Shown here one piece after another: positions 7,631-32,069 of a stretch of DNA of 64,000 nucleotides; the first letter of the stretch is position 1, and every line of letters starts with the position of its first letter. The position numbers were made by a program, and so were the translations under genes. The notes beneath the pieces were generated by a model, which ran no database searches, was not told the DNA's origin, and was given only the letters and a program-made list of their open reading frames with translations. This DNA is from an uncultured Candidatus Saccharibacteria bacterium (GTDB taxonomy: Bacteria; Patescibacteriota; Doudnabacteria; UBA920), in NCBI GenBank assembly GCA_964594755.1, contig CAZQMO010000001.1, forward strand, positions 68,838-132,837, in the 5' to 3' direction.

Positions 7631-8719
7631 TTACTTTACAATGTCGTAAAGATTTTTTCCGACCTTACGGAACAATTTCTTATTTGATAATCCAACTAAG
7701 ACGGTATTCTTCTTTACCAGGCGCTTATCGAGTACCCGTTTAATGATTTCGTCCCTAGATAATGGCTGACCTTCTTCTTTGATTACTTCAGAGATAATAT
7801 CGGACACCACGCCTGGTTTATAACCCCATTCAGTCAGAGCATAAATACCACGGCCGACGAGTACAAAACGCTTATCTTTGATTAACTTGTTATGAACTGT
7901 TTCTTTATAAGCTTTACGGCTATCAATGTTGTTTTGATTAATCAGGTCAGTAATGACTGAGTAATGCTCTGGTTTGCCATGATGTTTCATCACCAAGTAG
8001 GCTTTATCCCCCACATCCTTAGGTTTGATCTCATTCCAGTGAGATAGACCATATTCTCCAAAGGGATTTTTCCGAATCGTTTCAGCAGTGTGTAAATAAT
8101 TCAATACCACTTTTGGAGTAAGCCGGGTTTCATTTTGCTTATAGAAATCAGATTGCTGGAAAGCTTCCAAAAATTCGTCTGCAGAAATTGGTTTCCCGTG
8201 ATTATCGAGTAGATCTTTGGTCGCTGCAATAAATTCATGCAGGAAATCGCGTTCGAAACCAATCTTGGCCCATGATTGAAGAATGTGCTCATCGGAGCCA
8301 TGCTCTTCTAGTTCAGAAATTAACTTGAGGAGGAATTTGAGAGCTTGGATGTCAGCAGGATCAGTGTAACCTAAGTAATTAGTCAAAGCTTCCTCAGACA
8401 TAATCCCACCATGTTCGGAAATAGTATTAATCAGTAAATCGCGAGCTGAGATAAAGTCTTGCAACTCAACAACGCCACGTTTGAGATTTTTTAAGAGTTC
8501 TTTTTCGATTTGTCGAACACGCTCACGGGTCAAACCTTGCTCTTCACCAACAGCTTTTAAGGTAGATACTTCATGCTCACCTAAGCCATAGCGTTTAGAA
8601 AGAATAACTTTTTCACGTTCTTTCAACGGTTCTAGAATTCGATCAATAATAATATTGAGTTCGAACTGTTGCAACGACTCTTTCTGATGTGAATCAATAA
8701 TTGTGTCCAAAATTCCCAT
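7631..8719 (-). CDS. DNA-binding protein with a sigma-70 region-4-like HTH (N-terminal) and a HARE-HTH-like C-terminal motif
   Basis: LSKRYGL...GLTRERVRQIEKELLKNL is a typical sigma-70 r4 HTH. The C-terminal VLVGRGIYALTEWGY matches the GRGxYxLxEW signature of HARE-HTH/Mrr_N-like domains. It is the first gene of an operon with the two downstream genes. Confidence 0.5.
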   Translation of the reverse strand: MGILDTIIDSHQKESLQQFELNIIIDRILEPLKEREKVILSKRYGLGEHEVSTLKAVGEEQGLTRERVRQIEKELLKNLKRGVVELQDFISARDLLINTISEHGGIMSEEALTNYLGYTDPADIQALKFLLKLISELEEHGSDEHILQSWAKIGFERDFLHEFIAATKDLLDNHGKPISADEFLEAFQQSDFYKQNETRLTPKVVLNYLHTAETIRKNPFGEYGLSHWNEIKPKDVGDKAYLVMKHHGKPEHYSVITDLINQNNIDSRKAYKETVHNKLIKDKRFVLVGRGIYALTEWGYKPGVVSDIISEVIKEEGQPLSRDEIIKRVLDKRLVKKNTVLVGLSNKKLFRKVGKNLYDIVK

Positions 8720-25427: not shown

Positions 25428-25760
25428 AAGCTTTAAGCAGGCCGAGCAATCGCCCGCCGCCATGAGCGGCTGGAGGAAAGTCCGGACACTCGAGTTGAAA
25501 GTATCATATGAGCTTTTAACCCTAGTAGCGGGTAACACCCGTCGGGAGTAATCCTAGAGATGCGAACAGTGACGCCTAAGCAGAGATGCAAGGGAATCCT
25601 TCGGGATTAACTTTTGCGGAAACGCAAAAGATGAAACGGCTAAATTCTTACTTGAGTGCAATGCCAAATTTGGTAGGCAGCACGAGCGCCTTGGTAACAA
25701 GTCGCCTAGATAGATGATTGTTTAGAACCAGAATCCGGCTTACGAACCTGCTTGAAGCAA
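25428..25760 (+). ncRNA. rnpB: RNase P RNA, bacterial type A
   Basis: Contains the universal GGAAAGTCCGGAC (P4 5' strand) and AGAATCCGGCTTA (P4 3' strand) motifs. P1 pairs 5' gaagctttaagcagg with 3' cctgcttgaagc. Length is about 333 nt and the region is GC-rich relative to its flanks. Confidence 0.88.
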
Positions 25761-29147: not shown

Positions 29148-29654
29148 CTAAAGTTTTCTACTATCGTAAGCCCAATGTAAAATCGCTTGGCGTTGTCGTG
29201 GTCTGCATTGGTAATCGCGAGGATGACAAGATTTTTTTAATTGTGCAATGTGACGACGAATCGCTTTCCAGCGTTTAATTTGTCGTTGATCTTCTTGTGG
29301 CATACGGCGCCCCATGTAATAACGGCAGTACCACTGAAACCAACCTCGTGGGTCTTCCGGATGAATCCAACCTTTCTTTTTCCATACTAACAATGGCTGG
29401 CTAGCGTTAACTTTAAAGTAGTTCAGAGTGGCATCATGAAATTCTGGGTTGAGTTTGGCTTTTGCAAACCAATCTTTTGGAAATTCTTTTTTACAATCTG
29501 TCATATACTTACCACCAAACACGCCTAGCGCCAGCATTTGTTTTGGCGTAAGCTCAGGTTTGAATTCCGGATCAAACTTTTTACCAACTGGTGCGACTAG
29601 TTCATAGCTATAACCAGTTTGCATTTTATCGTTCACATGAATGACTCTTTTCAT
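29148..29654 (-). CDS. Conserved hypothetical protein (168 aa) with GWIHPEDPRGWFQWYCRYYMGRR motif
   Basis: ORF directly downstream of tRNA-Trp, in the slot usually occupied by secE/nusG. Basic C-terminus; family not recognised. Confidence 0.5.
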   Translation of the reverse strand: MKRVIHVNDKMQTGYSYELVAPVGKKFDPEFKPELTPKQMLALGVFGGKYMTDCKKEFPKDWFAKAKLNPEFHDATLNYFKVNASQPLLVWKKKGWIHPEDPRGWFQWYCRYYMGRRMPQEDQRQIKRWKAIRRHIAQLKKSCHPRDYQCRPRQRQAILHWAYDSRKL

Positions 29655-29667
29655 AATATTATCTTAA

Positions 29668-29690
29668 CAAAAAACCGCCTGTTCGGCGAT
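29668..29690 (-). terminator. Terminator after tRNA-Trp (- strand)
   Basis: On the - strand: cgcc-gaacag-gcgg followed by TTTTTTG. Confidence 0.55.
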
Positions 29691-29696
29691 TTTTTA

Positions 29697-29770
29697 TGGC
29701 ACGGGCTGTAGGAATCGAACCTACGCAAGCGGTTTTGGAGACCGCTGTACTACCATTATACGAAGCCCGC
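29697..29770 (-). tRNA. tRNA-Trp (anticodon CCA)
   Basis: Reverse complement GCGGGCTTCGTATAATGGTAGTACAGCGGTCTCCAAAACCGCTTGCGTAGGTTCGATTCCTACAGCCCGTGCCA forms a cloverleaf with anticodon loop CTCCAAA and an encoded CCA. Confidence 0.9.
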
Positions 29771-29833
29771 AAAGCTTACTGCTCCATATTATATCAAACC
29801 CCGCTAATCCGCCGACTGGCAGAGCGGGGTTGA

Positions 29834-29989
29834 TTACTTAGTTTCTTTGTGTGCAGTTTGTTTGCGGCAGTGCTTACAATACTTTTTAATTTCAAGACGA
29901 GCTTGGGTATTCTTCTTGTTCTTTGTAGTATTGTAATTAATATTGCGGCACTCTGTGCATTCAAGCTGTATACGGTGATCTTGTGACAT
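29834..29989 (-). CDS. rpmG: 50S ribosomal protein L33
   Basis: 51 aa [51 protein letters not shown] with the L33 C4 zinc-ribbon signature. Missed by the ORF track because it is under 60 aa. Confidence 0.9.
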
Positions 29990-30136
29990 AATAATTTTTT
30001 ACTAATGGGGCACCCCGCAACACTTGGGCTCGAGCAGAGCGAGAGTTAAGTGTTGTGGGGAAAGGGACAACATCCTGCAAGCTGCAGTGACTTCGACAGC
30101 GTCGGAGGCACGTAAGCCGGAGGGATGATTGGCCCG

Positions 30137-30213
30137 TGGAGCCGGCTGTCGGATTCGAACCGACGACCTACGGTTTACAAAACCGTTGCTCTAACCAGCT
30201 GAGCTAAGCCGGC
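30137..30213 (-). tRNA. tRNA-Thr (anticodon TGT)
   Basis: Reverse complement GCCGGCTTAGCTCAGCTGGTTAGAGCAACGGTTTTGTAAACCGTAGGTCGTCGGTTCGAATCCGACAGCCGGCTCCA with anticodon loop TTTGTAA. Confidence 0.9.
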
Positions 30214-30466
30214 CGAAATTACAGCCAAATATAACTTTCAAAGTTTAACACAAACCCTTGCAAAAGTCCAGTCTCCAGTTTATACTACTAATGCATACAG
30301 CATTTACACAATCCCAACGAGGATATAAGGGGAATCCGATTTTACCACCCTATAAAAACAGGGTGAGTCGGCCCATTATTATAAAAGAAAGCACGAAATA
30401 TGGCTTTTTTTATTTGCTTATTGACCACCACTTTGATACCTTAATTTAGCTAAAGTAGGAGGAAAT

Positions 30467-30964
30467 ATGACAGAACACCGCGAAGACACTGTAGGATCAT
30501 CTATTAAAAAATATCTAGGGCTGGCTACCATTCGACGATCCACTGACAAAGAACGCAACGATACCAAGCTCCACAATGAGAAAGCTGAACCCAACGTTCC
30601 GCGTATCTCCGTTCCGCTAATCGGAATAGAATATTTCTGCCGTTGGTGCCAAAAGATGACCTTGGCAACACTATACGACCCGTGGTCATACAACGCTCAT
30701 GCAAATTGCACCCATTGCTATGCACGAGCAGATTTCATGCCGAACGGCATAAACTACGGCCTAAGTCTTGCGCAATTATGTATCCTCGCCGAAGCTGCCA
30801 GAAAAAGGCATTCAAACTGGCTGAGGATAAAAGCGGCCATGCTGAGTTACGCCCTCTTTGGCATACCAGCAGATCTAATTCCGGCAGATCGTGAAGGCAT
30901 GACTCTCGGCGAAGTTGAAACAAGATATTTCTTCGCTCTTTCACATTTCATCATGTCAGAATAA
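30467..30964 (+). CDS. Hypothetical zinc-ribbon protein (165 aa; CRWC...CTHC), orphan gene inside the tRNA cluster
   Basis: Perfect RBS AGGAGG 6 nt before the ATG. Two CxxC pairs and a local GC about 47-48%, above the flanking sequence. An intrinsic terminator follows. Confidence 0.6.
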   Translation: MTEHREDTVGSSIKKYLGLATIRRSTDKERNDTKLHNEKAEPNVPRISVPLIGIEYFCRWCQKMTLATLYDPWSYNAHANCTHCYARADFMPNGINYGLSLAQLCILAEAARKRHSNWLRIKAAMLSYALFGIPADLIPADREGMTLGEVETRYFFALSHFIMSE

Positions 30965-30969
30965 CGACA

Positions 30970-31000
30970 TCAGCACTCCAACGGGAGTGCTTTTTTCTCA
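30970..31000 (+). terminator. Rho-independent terminator (agcactcc-aacg-ggagtgct TTTTTT)
   Basis: 8-bp stem plus a T-run directly after the 30964 stop. A second perfect 13-bp palindrome (aaaatgacatctc-gtct-gagatgtcatttt) follows at 31014-31044. Confidence 0.75.
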
Positions 31001-31045
31001 TCCGCTTCAAACATAAAATGACATCTCGTCTGAGATGTCATTTTA

Positions 31046-31131
31046 TGGTGGGCCGAGCAGGATTCGAACCTGCGAAGGCGAAAGCCAGCAGATTTACAGT
31101 CTGCCCTCGTTGACCGCTTGAGTATCGACCC
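31046..31131 (-). tRNA. tRNA-Tyr (anticodon GTA), long variable arm
   Basis: Reverse complement GGGTCGATACTCAAGCGGTCAACGAGGGCAGACTGTAAATCTGCTGGCTTTCGCCTTCGCAGGTTCGAATCCTGCTCGGCCCACCA. Confidence 0.88.
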
Positions 31132-31132
31132 G

Positions 31133-31208
31133 TGGAGCCGTTGTGCGGGATTGAACCGCAGACCTTCTCCTTACCATGGAGATGCTCTACCAACTGAGCT
31201 ACAACGGC
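31133..31208 (-). tRNA. tRNA-Thr (anticodon GGT)
   Basis: Reverse complement GCCGTTGTAGCTCAGTTGGTAGAGCATCTCCATGGTAAGGAGAAGGTCTGCGGTTCAATCCCGCACAACGGCTCCA. It is 1 nt from tRNA-Tyr. Confidence 0.88.
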
Positions 31209-31247
31209 ACGTCCAAGTCTGGATGTGGTACTGAATACCCAGATAGT

Positions 31248-32006
31248 TTAACTGTTTTGATGAATATTTTCAAGAGGCACAGTGGTCTTGGCTTTGTTCT
31301 CCAGTTCAAAGCGAAGGTCTTGATACTTACGATTACCTGGCTCCAAATGAAGAGCCTTGTCCAATGATTCAACTGCTGCGGCGTACTTCTTTAAGCCTTG
31401 TTGTGCTAACGCTAAATTATAAAATCGACTTGGACTAGTTGGGTCTAACTTTACAGCTTTAGTGTATGCTTCCTCTGCACGTTTATGTTCTTGCAAATAC
31501 AATGAAGCTAAGCCGAGACGAACCCAAAAGATAGCTTCAGTTGGTGCATGATTAACCAAGTAATCATAAACACTCACCGCGTCATGCATCTTCTTTTGCT
31601 CCAAATAATACTGACCTAGCATATCGTAATAAGAATTATCTTTGGGATTACGCTTAATTAGGTCAATGTAATACTTTTCATTCTTAACTAATGCCGGTTG
31701 AGTATCAACATTATCCCCTGCTTGAAAGATCCTCTGGAATTGATAACTGATTTTTGGAGATTGCTTTAACCCTTTGGCTTCCAAAACAAAATGCCAAAGT
31801 TTATGTTTGAGTAATTTAAAGAAACCCAAACTCTTAGAATAGGCACGGGCCGGTAACCCTTTGGCCAATAAAGCCTCACTAGCTGGTACGCCACTAGAAG
31901 CTTCTTTGCGTGCTGTATGTTGTTTTTGATCGCGAGTAGCCTGGGGTAAATGTCGCAACACCATCAGGATGACCCCGAGGGCTGAGAGCACAAATGTAAT
32001 GTTCAT
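31248..32006 (-). CDS. TPR-repeat protein with N-terminal membrane anchor
   Basis: N-terminal hydrophobic helix, then several 34-aa TPR-like repeats (AEEAYTKAVKLDP..., YNLALAQQGLKKYAAAVESLDKAL). The track ORF begins with GTG at 32024; ATG at 32006 is the likelier start. Confidence 0.6.
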   Translation of the reverse strand: MNITFVLSALGVILMVLRHLPQATRDQKQHTARKEASSGVPASEALLAKGLPARAYSKSLGFFKLLKHKLWHFVLEAKGLKQSPKISYQFQRIFQAGDNVDTQPALVKNEKYYIDLIKRNPKDNSYYDMLGQYYLEQKKMHDAVSVYDYLVNHAPTEAIFWVRLGLASLYLQEHKRAEEAYTKAVKLDPTSPSRFYNLALAQQGLKKYAAAVESLDKALHLEPGNRKYQDLRFELENKAKTTVPLENIHQNS

Positions 32007-32069
32007 TATAGTGTTATACGGCACTGATATTTGTTTAAGTGGTTACTCGTGCGTATATTATAGCATTTT

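What the first reader, a model, noticed from the sequence alone, without database searches (positions are those of the whole stretch)
30214..31045. Higher-GC orphan zinc-ribbon gene with its own RBS and terminator inserted inside a tRNA cluster
The cluster tRNA-Thr(TGT) ... tRNA-Tyr-tRNA-Thr(GGT) on the - strand is interrupted by about 830 bp carrying a single + strand gene (165 aa, CRWC/CTHC zinc ribbon). It has a perfect AGGAGG SD, elevated GC (about 47-48% against a roughly 40% background, which generates overlapping spurious ORFs on all frames) and a private terminator followed by a second perfect 13-bp palindrome. tRNA genes are classic integration hot spots. The compositional anomaly and opposite orientation suggest a horizontally acquired cargo gene or a remnant of a small mobile element. 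No integrase or repeats were found.
Basis: seen in the sequence. Interest (0 to 1): 0.5.

Follow-up and report, generated by a model that had tools for sequence, protein, structure and literature searches.

The report
Old orphan gene and sRNA between tRNAs
The 830-bp gap in this tRNA cluster is not a fresh foreign insert: it holds a clade-specific zinc-ribbon protein gene of unknown function and a previously undescribed small pseudoknotted RNA gene, and both have sat in this gene-turnover spot since the common ancestor of a group of Patescibacteria.

Summary
A 165-aa CxxC/CxxC ORF on the + strand (30467-30964) interrupts a - strand tRNA cluster. It has an AGGAGG SD, its own terminator, a second palindrome, and the highest GC of 54 ORFs in the window.

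The interpretation as recently acquired cargo is mostly wrong.
- **Real gene:** dN/dS is 0.10-0.21.
- **Rare family:** it has 9 clusters among 1.84 billion representatives. There is no Pfam, NCBIfam, PHROG, PADLOC or PDB match and no fold match to a confident AF2 model.
- **Syntenic orthologues:** proteins only 29-35% identical sit in the same tRNA slot in relatives whose EF-Ts is 74-80% identical. The gene's GC tracks host GC with a small positive offset.
- **History:** it is therefore an old, fast-evolving resident with several losses.
- **The slot itself turns over:** it is empty in some relatives and holds LAGLIDADG or other cargo in others.

The upstream 250 bp is not a plain leader. It holds overlapping divergent promoters and a roughly 115-nt sRNA with an H-type pseudoknot. 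Covariation supports the pseudoknot in 16 sequences (0 of 500 shuffles reach the observed score), and no Rfam family matches.

The second palindrome is the tRNA-Tyr terminator. The functions of both the protein and the sRNA remain unknown.

The parts
30137..30213 (-). tRNA-Thr(TGT), the left border of the slot. It heads the tRNA-Thr / 147-nt element / rpmG / tRNA-Trp unit.
   Evidence: ARAGORN; Rfam tRNA at 74.7 bits.
30233..30286 (.). Overlapping divergent promoters. The + strand has TTGCAA (30258-30263), 17 nt, TATACT (30281-30286), driving the sRNA. The - strand has TGGACT (30273-30268), 17 nt, TAAACT (30248-30243), inferred to drive tRNA-Thr(TGT). The palindrome AACTTTCAAAGTT (30233-30245) overlaps the - strand -10 box and start site.
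   Evidence: The + strand site comes. The block 30214-30274 is conserved in all relatives, including those with an empty slot. A clear equivalent pair exists in L102: + TTGACA-17-TATGAT at 11 of 12 matches, and - TGGACA-17-TACAAT at 10 of 12. The window's - strand site scores 8 of 12 and was read by eye, so it is an inference.
30293..30411 (+). Candidate small RNA gene of about 115 nt. It runs from the predicted start site, through a conserved GAGGA (30319-30323) and the pseudoknot core, to an intrinsic terminator.
   Evidence: The MFE is -29.6 kcal/mol, z -4.1. The promoter, core and terminator are conserved in 16 non-identical loci. The unit also occurs without the ORF in L011, L012, L014-L018, L024 and L097. 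The ends are predicted, not mapped.
30326..30375 (+). H-type pseudoknot core of the sRNA. P1 pairs AGGG (30328-30331) with CCCU (30348-30351). P2 pairs CCGAU (30336-30340) with GUCGG (30367-30371). The invariant GAAU (30332-30335), ACC (30344-30346) and GGGU (30361-30364) lie between them.
   Evidence: The covariance model scores 66 bits here and this is the only hit in the window. In 16 sequences 94.8% of cells are paired, 34 cells show changes on both sides, and 0 of 500 shuffles reach the covariation score. Slid controls give at most 46% paired. P1 was not part of the search model, yet it holds in the six sequences the model found. No Rfam family matches.
30384..30411 (+). Weak, A-U-rich intrinsic terminator of the sRNA.
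   Evidence: Fold result. Every homologue has a stem of different sequence plus a T-run at the same position (for example 4938-4958 in L102).
30421..30462 (+). ORF translation signals: the AGGAGG SD (30457-30462) and a weak candidate promoter (TTGACC at 30421-30426 with a poor -10 box).
   Evidence: Sequence. The scan found no promoter here in the window. L001 has TTGACT-17-TACAGT with an upstream TG at the same place. In L102 only about 35 nt separate the terminator from the ATG. Whether the ORF uses its own promoter or terminator read-through is therefore not settled.
30467..30964 (+). Gene for a 165-aa C4 zinc-ribbon protein from an uncharacterised, clade-restricted family.
   Evidence: dN/dS is 0.10-0.21. 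The family alignment A7 has invariant C58, C61, D71, S74, C81, C84, P139 and E151. The AF2 model has pLDDT 85.7. No family or fold match was found.
30972..30997 (+). Intrinsic terminator of the ORF.
   Evidence: The stem is conserved and its loop varies in L001, L003 and L007.
31012..31047 (-). Terminator hairpin of the tRNA-Thr(GGT)-tRNA-Tyr transcription unit.
   Evidence: It starts at the last base of tRNA-Tyr. On the - strand it folds at -19.1 kcal/mol (z -6.95) and is followed by a U-rich tail. In L001, L012, L024 and L092 a hairpin of different sequence sits in the same position directly 3' of tRNA-Tyr.
31046..31208 (-). tRNA-Tyr(GTA) and tRNA-Thr(GGT), the right border of the slot.

Best explanation
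The 832-bp spacer is an old, clade-specific part of this Patescibacteria genome rather than a recent insertion. It holds two tandem + strand units, placed antiparallel to the tRNA genes.

**(i) The sRNA.** A roughly 115-nt small RNA is transcribed from a promoter that overlaps, back to back, the promoter of tRNA-Thr(TGT). Its conserved core folds into an H-type pseudoknot, and it ends at an intrinsic terminator.

**(ii) The protein gene.** A 165-aa gene follows, encoding a basic N-terminal segment, a C4 zinc ribbon and three C-terminal helices.

**History.** Both units were already in this slot in the common ancestor of a family-level clade. The protein gene then evolved fast under purifying selection and was lost or replaced several times, because the slot is prone to rearrangement. 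Its raised GC is a property of the gene family and not a donor signature.

**Shown:**
- coding status and selection;
- synteny of distant orthologues;
- variability of the slot;
- the RNA pseudoknot;
- the absence of known homologues.

**Inferred:**
- The protein is a zinc-dependent nucleic-acid-binding factor whose role is tied to tRNA or sRNA expression or handling. Seven of the eight family contexts that could be read lie between tRNA genes.
- It is made either from its own weak promoter or by read-through of the leaky sRNA terminator.

I put about 0.8 on 'ancient resident gene plus independent sRNA' and about 0.3 on the nucleic-acid-binding, tRNA-linked role. The confidence given for this explanation (0.7) refers to the structural and evolutionary statement.
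For: **It is a gene.**
- dN/dS is 0.10-0.21 in six pairwise comparisons, and third codon positions carry most substitutions.

**The family is real but rare.**
- It has 9 clusters with E<1e-3 among 1.84 billion representatives, with invariant C58, C61, D71, S74, C81, C84, P139 and E151.
- AF2 confidence rose from pLDDT 47 with 4 sequences to 85.7 with 11.

**Synteny.**
- L102 reads Thr(TGT) | sRNA | ORF | Tyr, Thr(GGT), TPR, EF-Ts, S2.
- L101 reads Thr(TGT) | ORF | sRNA | ... | Tyr, Thr(GGT), TPR, EF-Ts, S2.
- L095 reads Thr(TGT) | sRNA | ORF.
- L100 reads Thr(TGT) | 124-aa ORF | ORF.
- L092 reads Thr(TGT) | sRNA | Tyr | ORF | Thr(GGT).
- L104 reads tRNA-Met | ORF | tRNA-Met.

**Co-divergence with the host.**
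- ORF identity is 73-80% where EF-Ts identity is 88-91%.
- ORF identity is 29-35% where EF-Ts identity is 73-80%.
- The ORF is present in both main branches of the EF-Ts+S2 tree.
- Outgroup clusters are compact.

**Composition.** ORF GC exceeds locus GC by up to about 6 points in nine of ten lineages checked, whatever the host GC. The exception is L095, a 915-bp contig, with 0.397 against 0.409.

**Charge.** pI is 8.2-9.4 in 10 of 11 members.

**sRNA.**
Against: - The distribution is patchy. The gene is absent from L011 and L012, which are about as close as L001, and from L014-L018, L021, L023 and apparently L024. Vertical descent therefore needs at least 3-4 losses.
- ORF dS (0.43-1.44) is not higher than that of flanking genes, and is often lower; the flanks range from 0.8 to saturation.
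- The ORF tree and the sRNA core types disagree. The L003 and L007 ORFs are closest to each other, yet L003 carries the L001-type sRNA and L007 the window-type. Some lateral exchange by recombination within the clade is therefore likely.
- One member (L089) is not next to a tRNA within the 317 bp available upstream.
- Host trees rest on two proteins from MAGs, and most contexts of distant homologues are short contigs.
Confidence: 0.7

Rival explanations
1. One reading: a horizontally acquired cargo gene, or the remnant of a small mobile element, recently integrated at a tRNA hot spot from a higher-GC donor.
For: - ORF GC is the highest of 54 ORFs, and its codon fit is second worst of 48.
- It lies on the opposite strand to its neighbours.
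- The slot holds different cargo in relatives, including a LAGLIDADG endonuclease, and partial tRNA-Thr(TGT) duplications occur in L011 and L012.
Against: - Orthologues sit at the same position in hosts down to 74% EF-Ts identity, and they diverge in step with the host.
- The GC offset is present in nearly every lineage and follows host GC.
- No homologue was found outside the clade, in viral contigs or in JGI metagenome contigs.
- There is no integrase and no att-like repeats in the window.
- The dinucleotide signature is ordinary.
Confidence: 0.05
2. A selfish, free-standing homing-type gene. It would persist by targeting conserved tRNA-cluster DNA and spreading between related genomes by recombination through the conserved tRNA flanks. 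The analogue is T4 segB, which lies inside the phage tRNA gene cluster.
For: - The family sits between tRNA genes in three different slots: Thr|Tyr, Tyr|Thr and Met|Met.
- Presence among close relatives is patchy.
- A true LAGLIDADG gene occupies exactly the same position in L011.
- Protein evolution is fast, while dS is equal to or lower than that of the flanks.
- The ORF and sRNA types are mosaic.
- SegB is a precedent (PMC2330249).
Against: - No nuclease motif or fold was found. There is no GIY-YIG, HNH, LAGLIDADG or PD-(D/E)XK match, and H78 and H83 are not conserved.
- The protein is 165 aa, half of it helical.
- The coarse phylogeny is congruent with the host's.
- Purifying selection acts over the whole length across deep divergence.
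Confidence: 0.13
3. The sRNA and the protein form one functional RNA-protein module. The promoter, structured RNA, terminator and ORF follow the layout of type III toxin-antitoxin loci (ToxIN). Alternatively the RNA could be a cis-acting leader or riboswitch for the ORF.
For: - The order promoter, pseudoknot RNA, intrinsic terminator, ORF is found in the window, L001, L003, L007, L095 and L102.
- The terminator in the window is weak, and in L102 only about 35 nt separate it from the ATG, so read-through is plausible.
- The RNA and the ORF share the same slot across the clade.
Against: - The RNA occurs without the ORF in L011, L012, L014-L018, L024 and L097.
- The ORF occurs without a nearby RNA in L100 and L104.
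- The RNA is downstream of the ORF in L101, and tRNA-Tyr separates the two in L092.
- The RNA is single-copy rather than a tandem array.
- There is no PADLOC or ToxN-like match.
- L001 has a separate promoter for the ORF.
- The pseudoknot strands do not overlap the terminator stem, so there is no evident expression platform.
Confidence: 0.1
4. It is not a gene: a chance ORF in a GC-richer spacer or structured RNA region.
For: - Several overlapping ORFs exist in other frames.
- GC is rather flat across codon positions: 0.51, 0.43 and 0.46.
- L007 and L008 carry an in-frame TAA at codon 103.
Against: - dN/dS is 0.10-0.21, with third-position excess.
- The frame, length and SD are conserved in relatives.
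- Distant homologues have invariant Cys residues and motifs.
- The AF2 model is confident.
Confidence: 0.01

Closest known systems
Free-standing homing endonuclease genes inside tRNA gene clusters (phage T4 segB, GIY-YIG; PMC2330249)
   Same: A small gene with its own expression signals sits between tRNA genes. It is present in some relatives and absent in others, and a LAGLIDADG gene takes its exact place in L011.
   Different: No nuclease family signature or fold was found. The host is cellular (Patescibacteria). Orthologues co-diverge with the host over long distances. No cleavage was tested.
tRNA-gene-associated genomic islets and integration hot spots
   Same: The site next to tRNA genes has variable content. 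Partial tRNA-Thr(TGT) duplications occur in L011 and L012, and the ORF is compositionally offset.
   Different: There is no integrase, no att repeats in this window and no foreign homologues. The gene is ancestral to the clade.
Type III toxin-antitoxin loci (ToxIN)
   Same: The linear order is promoter, pseudoknot-forming RNA, intrinsic terminator, then a protein gene of about 170 aa.
   Different: The RNA is a single copy and not a repeat array. The RNA and the ORF occur independently in many genomes. The protein shows no ToxN or AbiQ similarity.
Small H-type pseudoknot RNAs and riboswitch aptamers (preQ1-I, SAM-II, guanidine-III classes)
   Same: The core is about 45 nt, with two covarying helices in the H-type arrangement, invariant loop nucleotides and an A-rich L3 in some members, followed by a terminator.
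   Different: Rfam gave no match even at E<=10. The downstream gene is not consistent. The aptamer and terminator share no strand. The RNA looks like a stand-alone sRNA.
Generic C4 zinc-ribbon proteins (for example NrdR N-domain, DksA/TraR, Trm112, TFIIB ribbon)
   Same: It has a CxxC-x19-CxxC motif, predicted as two beta-hairpin knuckles.
   Different: None of these families was matched by sequence or by fold. The best Foldseek hits to NrdR and Trm112 had E of 1.3-5.4 and TM of 0.12-0.16. The C-terminal three-helix part has no match.

Membership tests
tRNA-targeted integrative element / genomic islet | A site-specific recombinase (integrase) gene lies in or next to the insert. | tested here: not met
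   The 832-bp gap holds only the 165-aa ORF, which has no Pfam hit. The neighbours are rpmG, tRNAs and a TPR protein.
tRNA-targeted integrative element / genomic islet | Direct repeats (att sites, typically a duplicated tRNA 3' segment) flank the insert. | tested here: not met
   The repeat finder on 29600-31300 returned only tRNA-to-tRNA similarity and short chance matches. Partial tRNA-Thr(TGT) duplicates do exist in L011 and L012, but not in the window.
tRNA-targeted integrative element / genomic islet | The insert is present or absent among close relatives, and its phylogeny is foreign to the host's. | tested here: inconclusive
   Presence is variable: the gene is absent in L011, L012, L014-L018, L021 and L023. 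However, orthologues are syntenic and co-diverge with the host.
Free-standing homing endonuclease | A recognisable nuclease domain (GIY-YIG, HNH, LAGLIDADG, His-Cys box, PD-(D/E)XK, EDxHD). | tested here: not met
   No match in Pfam, PHROGs or NCBIfam, in the PDB profile search, or in the fold searches.
Free-standing homing endonuclease | It cleaves the allele that lacks the gene and is copied into it. | not testable with these tools
   This needs in vitro cleavage of L012- or L021-type spacer DNA.
Type III toxin-antitoxin (ToxIN-like) | A tandem array of antitoxin RNA repeats lies upstream of the toxin gene. | tested here: not met
   The covariance model finds one copy per locus.
Type III toxin-antitoxin (ToxIN-like) | A terminator lies between the RNA and the protein gene. 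| tested here: met
   A hairpin plus T-run follows the RNA in all loci.
Type III toxin-antitoxin (ToxIN-like) | The protein is a ToxN/AbiQ-type endoribonuclease that always co-occurs with its RNA. | tested here: not met
   There is no PADLOC hit and no fold hit. The ORF occurs without the RNA in L100 and L104, and the RNA occurs without the ORF in at least 8 loci.
Riboswitch / cis-regulatory leader | A conserved structured element lies upstream of a consistent set of genes, with an expression platform that overlaps the aptamer. | tested here: not met
   The structure is conserved. The downstream partner, however, varies between this ORF, a LAGLIDADG gene, tRNA-Tyr and nothing at all. The terminator stem is separate from P1 and P2.
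Any Rfam 15 family | A score at or above the family's gathering threshold. | tested here: not met
   Only tRNAs and RNase P reach threshold in the window. At E<=10 on 29650-31300 there are only chance-level hits, such as LhrC at 23 bits against a threshold of 110.
C4 zinc-ribbon fold | Two CxxC knuckles are conserved, each on a beta-hairpin. | tested here: met
   C58, C61, C81 and C84 are invariant in 11 sequences. AF2 predicts strands at 52-58, 63-67, 78-80 and 87-89, with block-mean pLDDT of 90-95 over residues 51-90. Metal binding itself was not tested.
DksA/TraR C4 zinc-finger regulators | A match to PF01258, and a coiled coil preceding the zinc finger. | tested here: not met

The most novel reading that the evidence does not exclude
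The pseudoknotted sRNA and the zinc-ribbon protein could be two parts of a previously unknown, clade-specific system embedded in tRNA operons of Patescibacteria. One version would be an RNA-protein pair that senses or controls tRNA expression or maturation. The sRNA promoter is physically interlocked with the tRNA-Thr(TGT)/rpmG promoter, and its core carries a T-loop-like GAAU and an ACC element. The evidence does not exclude this: the two units share one slot across the clade and are adjacent in six lineages. Nothing directly supports an interaction, however, and each also occurs without the other.
Probability: 0.1. Interest if true: 0.7.

Novelty: new variant of a known kind. Interest (0 to 1): 0.42.

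Why it matters
- **Caution for annotators.** Raised GC, opposite orientation and tRNA neighbours looked like a foreign islet here.
- **Two candidates for study.** Both come from organisms with tiny genomes and very few known regulators, and neither is in current libraries:
  - a protein family with a confident predicted fold that matched nothing among solved (PDB) or predicted viral (BFVD) structures; AFDB could not be searched;
  - a small RNA whose pseudoknot is supported by compensatory changes in sequences that were not used to define it.
- **A tractable natural experiment.** One tRNA spacer shows gene gain, loss, inversion and intron or homing-endonuclease invasion across a set of related uncultured bacteria.

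Tried and rejected
**Structure prediction and fold search**
- AF2 with only 4 sequences gave pLDDT 47 and was not used.
- The afdb50 library was unavailable.

**Sequence and profile searches**
- Pfam, PHROGs, NCBIfam, PADLOC and the PDB profile search returned only chance-level zinc-finger hits.
- Searching viral contigs and metagenome contigs for the protein found no relative. One attempt failed because the alignment had no conserved stretch.

**RNA ideas**
- I considered that the whole GC-rich spacer might be a large ncRNA of the GOLLD or ROOL type, which often sit near tRNAs. I rejected this because Rfam gave no hit and the substitution pattern is clearly coding.
- I considered preQ1-I, SRP RNA and tRNA-minihelix readings of the sRNA. 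I rejected them for lack of Rfam support and of conserved diagnostic nucleotides.
- The nested hairpin CACCCU/AGGGUG, which the MFE fold prefers, is not kept in register in other lineages. The pseudoknot P1 is.
- An outer helix P0, pairing the 5' strand with the 3' flank, was tested against mismatched-partner controls and is not clearly above chance: mean 4.44 against 3.88.
- A short conserved peptide in the sRNA region was rejected because the frames differ between lineages and most lack a start codon.

**Other ideas about the protein and promoter**
- An HNH-like reading of CxxC...H...CxHC was rejected because H78 and H83 are not conserved.
- The palindrome AACTTTCAAAGTT as the operator of this protein is unlikely, because it is conserved in loci that lack the ORF.
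Full report
**1. What is at the coordinates**

The window comes from a Patescibacteria (CPR) MAG. The closest public records are titled 'uncultured Candidatus Saccharibacteria', 'Ca. Doudnabacteria' or 'Patescibacteria group bacterium'.

On the - strand lie, in order, S2, EF-Ts, a TPR protein (31248-32024), tRNA-Thr(GGT) (31133-31208) and tRNA-Tyr (31046-31131). An 832-bp gap follows. After it come tRNA-Thr(TGT) (30137-30213), a 147-nt GC-rich element, rpmG (29834-29989) and tRNA-Trp.

The gap carries one long + strand ORF (30467-30964, 165 aa) with CRWC and CTHC. It has AGGAGG 4 nt before the ATG, a hairpin plus T-run terminator (30972-30991) and a perfect inverted repeat (31012-31047).

ORF GC is 0.466 against 0.407 for the window. 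That is the highest of 54 long ORFs, and GC3 (0.458) is the second highest. The ORF is in the top 3.5% of equal-sized windows for GC, and its codon fit is second worst of 48 genes. Its dinucleotide signature is ordinary.

**2. It is a real gene from a rare family**

A search of 5.8 billion proteins found only three relatives, at 77%, 70% and 69% identity. Pairwise dN/dS is 0.10-0.21, with a clear third-position excess, so the ORF is translated and under purifying selection.

A profile search of 1.84 billion cluster representatives found nine clusters in all. The 11-sequence alignment keeps C58, C61, D71, S74, C81, C84, P139 and E151 invariant. It shows the motifs GI..xCxxC, DPWSY, CxHC and IPxDRxGKT...LE.

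With this alignment AlphaFold2 gives pLDDT 85.7 and pTM 0.75. The model has an N-terminal helix-strand-helix, a four-stranded zinc ribbon (residues 52-89) and three C-terminal helices.

Nothing resembles it:
- Pfam, PHROGs, NCBIfam, PADLOC and a PDB sequence profile search gave no match.

Ten of the 11 members are basic, with pI 8.2-9.4.

**3. Comparative genomics of the slot**

Using EF-Ts as an anchor I fetched the same region from 80 genomes. I then located tRNAs and neighbouring genes in them.

The spacer between tRNA-Tyr and tRNA-Thr(TGT) varies as follows:

| Loci | Spacer content |
|---|---|
| Outgroups L067, L059 | 10-86 bp |
| L021 | 55 bp |
| L023 | 124 bp |
| L012 | 356 bp, holding only a small RNA unit |
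| L011 | a 263-aa LAGLIDADG_3 protein (49 bits) exactly where the ORF sits here, with tRNA-Tyr inverted |
| L015 | a 164-aa protein that looks secreted by eye |
| L014, L016, L018 | other cargo: a MutS-domain V protein and a recurrent protein of about 200 aa |
| L004, L007 | extra genes next to the ORF |

The ORF itself, however, is old. Homologues at only 29-35% identity occupy the same slot in L102 and L101, with the same flanking TPR, EF-Ts, S2, L31 and RF1 genes. L095 and L100 place it next to tRNA-Thr(TGT). L092 places it between tRNA-Tyr and tRNA-Thr(GGT). L104 places it between two tRNA-Met genes. Only L089 shows no tRNA in the 317 bp available upstream.

ORF identity falls in step with host divergence, and the ORF occurs in both main branches of an EF-Ts+S2 tree. 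ORF GC follows the host with a small positive offset: 0.351 against 0.330 in L102, and 0.440 against 0.404 in L101. The simplest history is ancestral presence with at least 3-4 losses.

Two results leave room for some lateral exchange within the clade. ORF dS is not higher than that of the flanks. The ORF and sRNA types are also mosaic between L003, L007 and L001.

**4. The 'leader' is a promoter block plus a separate small RNA gene**

The first roughly 60 bp of the gap (30214-30274) are conserved in every relative, including those with an empty slot. In L102 the equivalent block scores as two overlapping divergent promoters: + TTGACA-17-TATGAT and - TGGACA-17-TACAAT. The window has + TTGCAA-17-TATACT and, read by eye, - TGGACT-17-TAAACT. 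This part belongs to the tRNA-Thr(TGT)/rpmG unit and to the RNA described next. It is not part of an insert.

Downstream lies a conserved core (30326-30375) followed in all loci by a hairpin plus T-run, whose stem sequence differs between lineages.

The core forms an H-type pseudoknot. P1 pairs AGGG with CCCU, and P2 pairs CCGAU with GUCGG. GAAU, ACC and GGGU are invariant.

- On 10 sequences, 96.7% of cells are paired, and 7 of the 9 pairs of P1 and P2 show changes on both sides. No shuffle out of 500 reaches the observed covariation score.
- A covariance model built without P1 found six further, more divergent copies in L014-L016, L018, L101 and L102. All lie in the same slot, and P1 holds in all six.
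- On 16 sequences, 94.8% of cells are paired, with 34 double-change cells and 0 of 500 shuffles reaching the score. Slid controls give at most 46% paired.

Rfam has no match.

The RNA occurs without the ORF in L011, L012, L014-L018, L024 and L097. It lies downstream of the ORF in L101, and tRNA-Tyr separates the two in L092. I therefore read it as an independent sRNA gene rather than a leader. L001 has a separate promoter for the ORF after the sRNA terminator. In the window and in L102 no good promoter is seen and the terminator is weak or close to the ATG, so read-through is possible.

**5. The second palindrome**

It begins at the last base of tRNA-Tyr. On the - strand it folds at -19.1 kcal/mol and is followed by a U-rich tail. 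Hairpins of unrelated sequence occupy the same place directly 3' of tRNA-Tyr in L001, L012, L024 and L092. It is the terminator of the tRNA-Thr(GGT)-tRNA-Tyr unit, facing the ORF's own terminator.

**6. How it most likely works**

*Shown:*
- The spacer holds two conserved + strand units set antiparallel inside a split tRNA cluster.
- The protein gene is under selection.
- The family is restricted to one lineage and recurs between tRNA genes.

*Inferred:*
- The protein is a zinc-dependent nucleic-acid-binding factor connected with tRNA or sRNA expression or handling. I put about 0.3 on this.

*Rivals:*
- A selfish homing-type gene (0.13). The precedent is T4 segB inside the phage tRNA cluster (PMC2330249), and LAGLIDADG takes the ORF's place in L011, but no nuclease signature was found.
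- An RNA-protein module laid out like type III toxin-antitoxin loci (0.10). The RNA and the ORF occur independently, the RNA is not a repeat array, and there is no ToxN similarity.
- Recent horizontal cargo (0.05).
- A spurious ORF (0.01).

**7. Novelty and verdict**

The phenomenon, variable small genes in tRNA clusters, is known. The protein family and the sRNA motif are not in the libraries searched. Function is unknown for both.

I rate the finding as a new variant of a known kind, with moderate interest (0.42).

Noticed in passing
window 29990-30136: A 147-nt GC-rich element lies between the rpmG start codon and tRNA-Thr(TGT). It folds strongly on the + strand (-65.1 kcal/mol, z -6.5) and less so on the - strand (-48.2, z -3.9). 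The L011-type loci match it at 87% identity. L003 and L021 lack it and have only 15-21 bp there. There is no Rfam hit and it is single-copy in the window.
   Followed up: partly
L007 1760-2038 (also L016 about 8290-8510): tRNA-Tyr is inverted relative to the window and split by a group I intron of about 196 nt (Rfam RF00028, 33 bits, E 1e-6, below the gathering score). It lies next to a 131-136-aa ORF with a LAGLIDADG-like 'YAGEGAK' motif that has no Pfam hit. This is consistent with published tRNA group I introns in Patescibacteria (PMC13011429).
   Followed up: partly
L011 8152-8943 (identical in L096, L098, L099): A 263-aa LAGLIDADG_3 homing-endonuclease-like gene sits directly downstream of the sRNA terminator, exactly where the zinc-ribbon ORF sits in the window. 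tRNA-Tyr is inverted there. L011 and L012 each carry a partial second copy of tRNA-Thr(TGT).
   Followed up: partly
L014 5142-5744, L016 7603-8196, L018 9271-9870: A protein of about 200 aa (motifs HNHQAW..GGY.DH and FLHDIEKPW) recurs as cargo in the same tRNA slot. Only the L014 copy was scanned, and it has no Pfam match. L014 also carries a 639-aa protein with a MutS domain V hit just below the Pfam cutoff (29.4 bits against 30.2).
   Followed up: no
L007 781-1278 and L008: The orthologue carries an in-frame TAA at codon 103 in contigs from two different samples. The downstream 62 codons stay in frame with low dN/dS. This is either a recent pseudogene or a truncated product consisting of the zinc ribbon alone.
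   Followed up: partly
L003 and L009 (both from assembly CAZBOT): Both contigs end inside the tRNA cluster. L009's EF-Ts is 99% identical to the window's, whereas L003's orphan protein is only 70% identical and its 168-aa neighbour 90%. This suggests a mixed-strain bin or recombination at the cluster.
   Followed up: no
window 30233-30245: The perfect palindrome AACTTTCAAAGTT overlaps the inferred -10 box and start site of the tRNA-Thr(TGT) promoter. It is conserved in most relatives, including loci that lack the ORF. It may be an operator for an unknown regulator.
   Followed up: partly
window 30332-30339 and 30368-30375: The sRNA core shares GAATCCGA with the T-arm of the adjacent tRNA-Thr(TGT), and TCGGCCCA with the 3' acceptor end of the adjacent tRNA-Tyr. 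These identities are not kept in other lineages, so they are probably chance.
   Followed up: partly
L014, L015, L016, L018, just 5' of the sRNA core: In this subgroup the conserved GGAGG upstream of the pseudoknot is paired with a CCUCC 4-6 nt downstream, forming a hairpin between an SD-like and an anti-SD-like sequence. Other lineages keep GAGGA without the partner. The meaning is unknown.
   Followed up: no
window 25434-25758: A bacterial class A RNase P RNA lies on the + strand (120 bits). It is ordinary and is noted only for the annotation.
   Followed up: no
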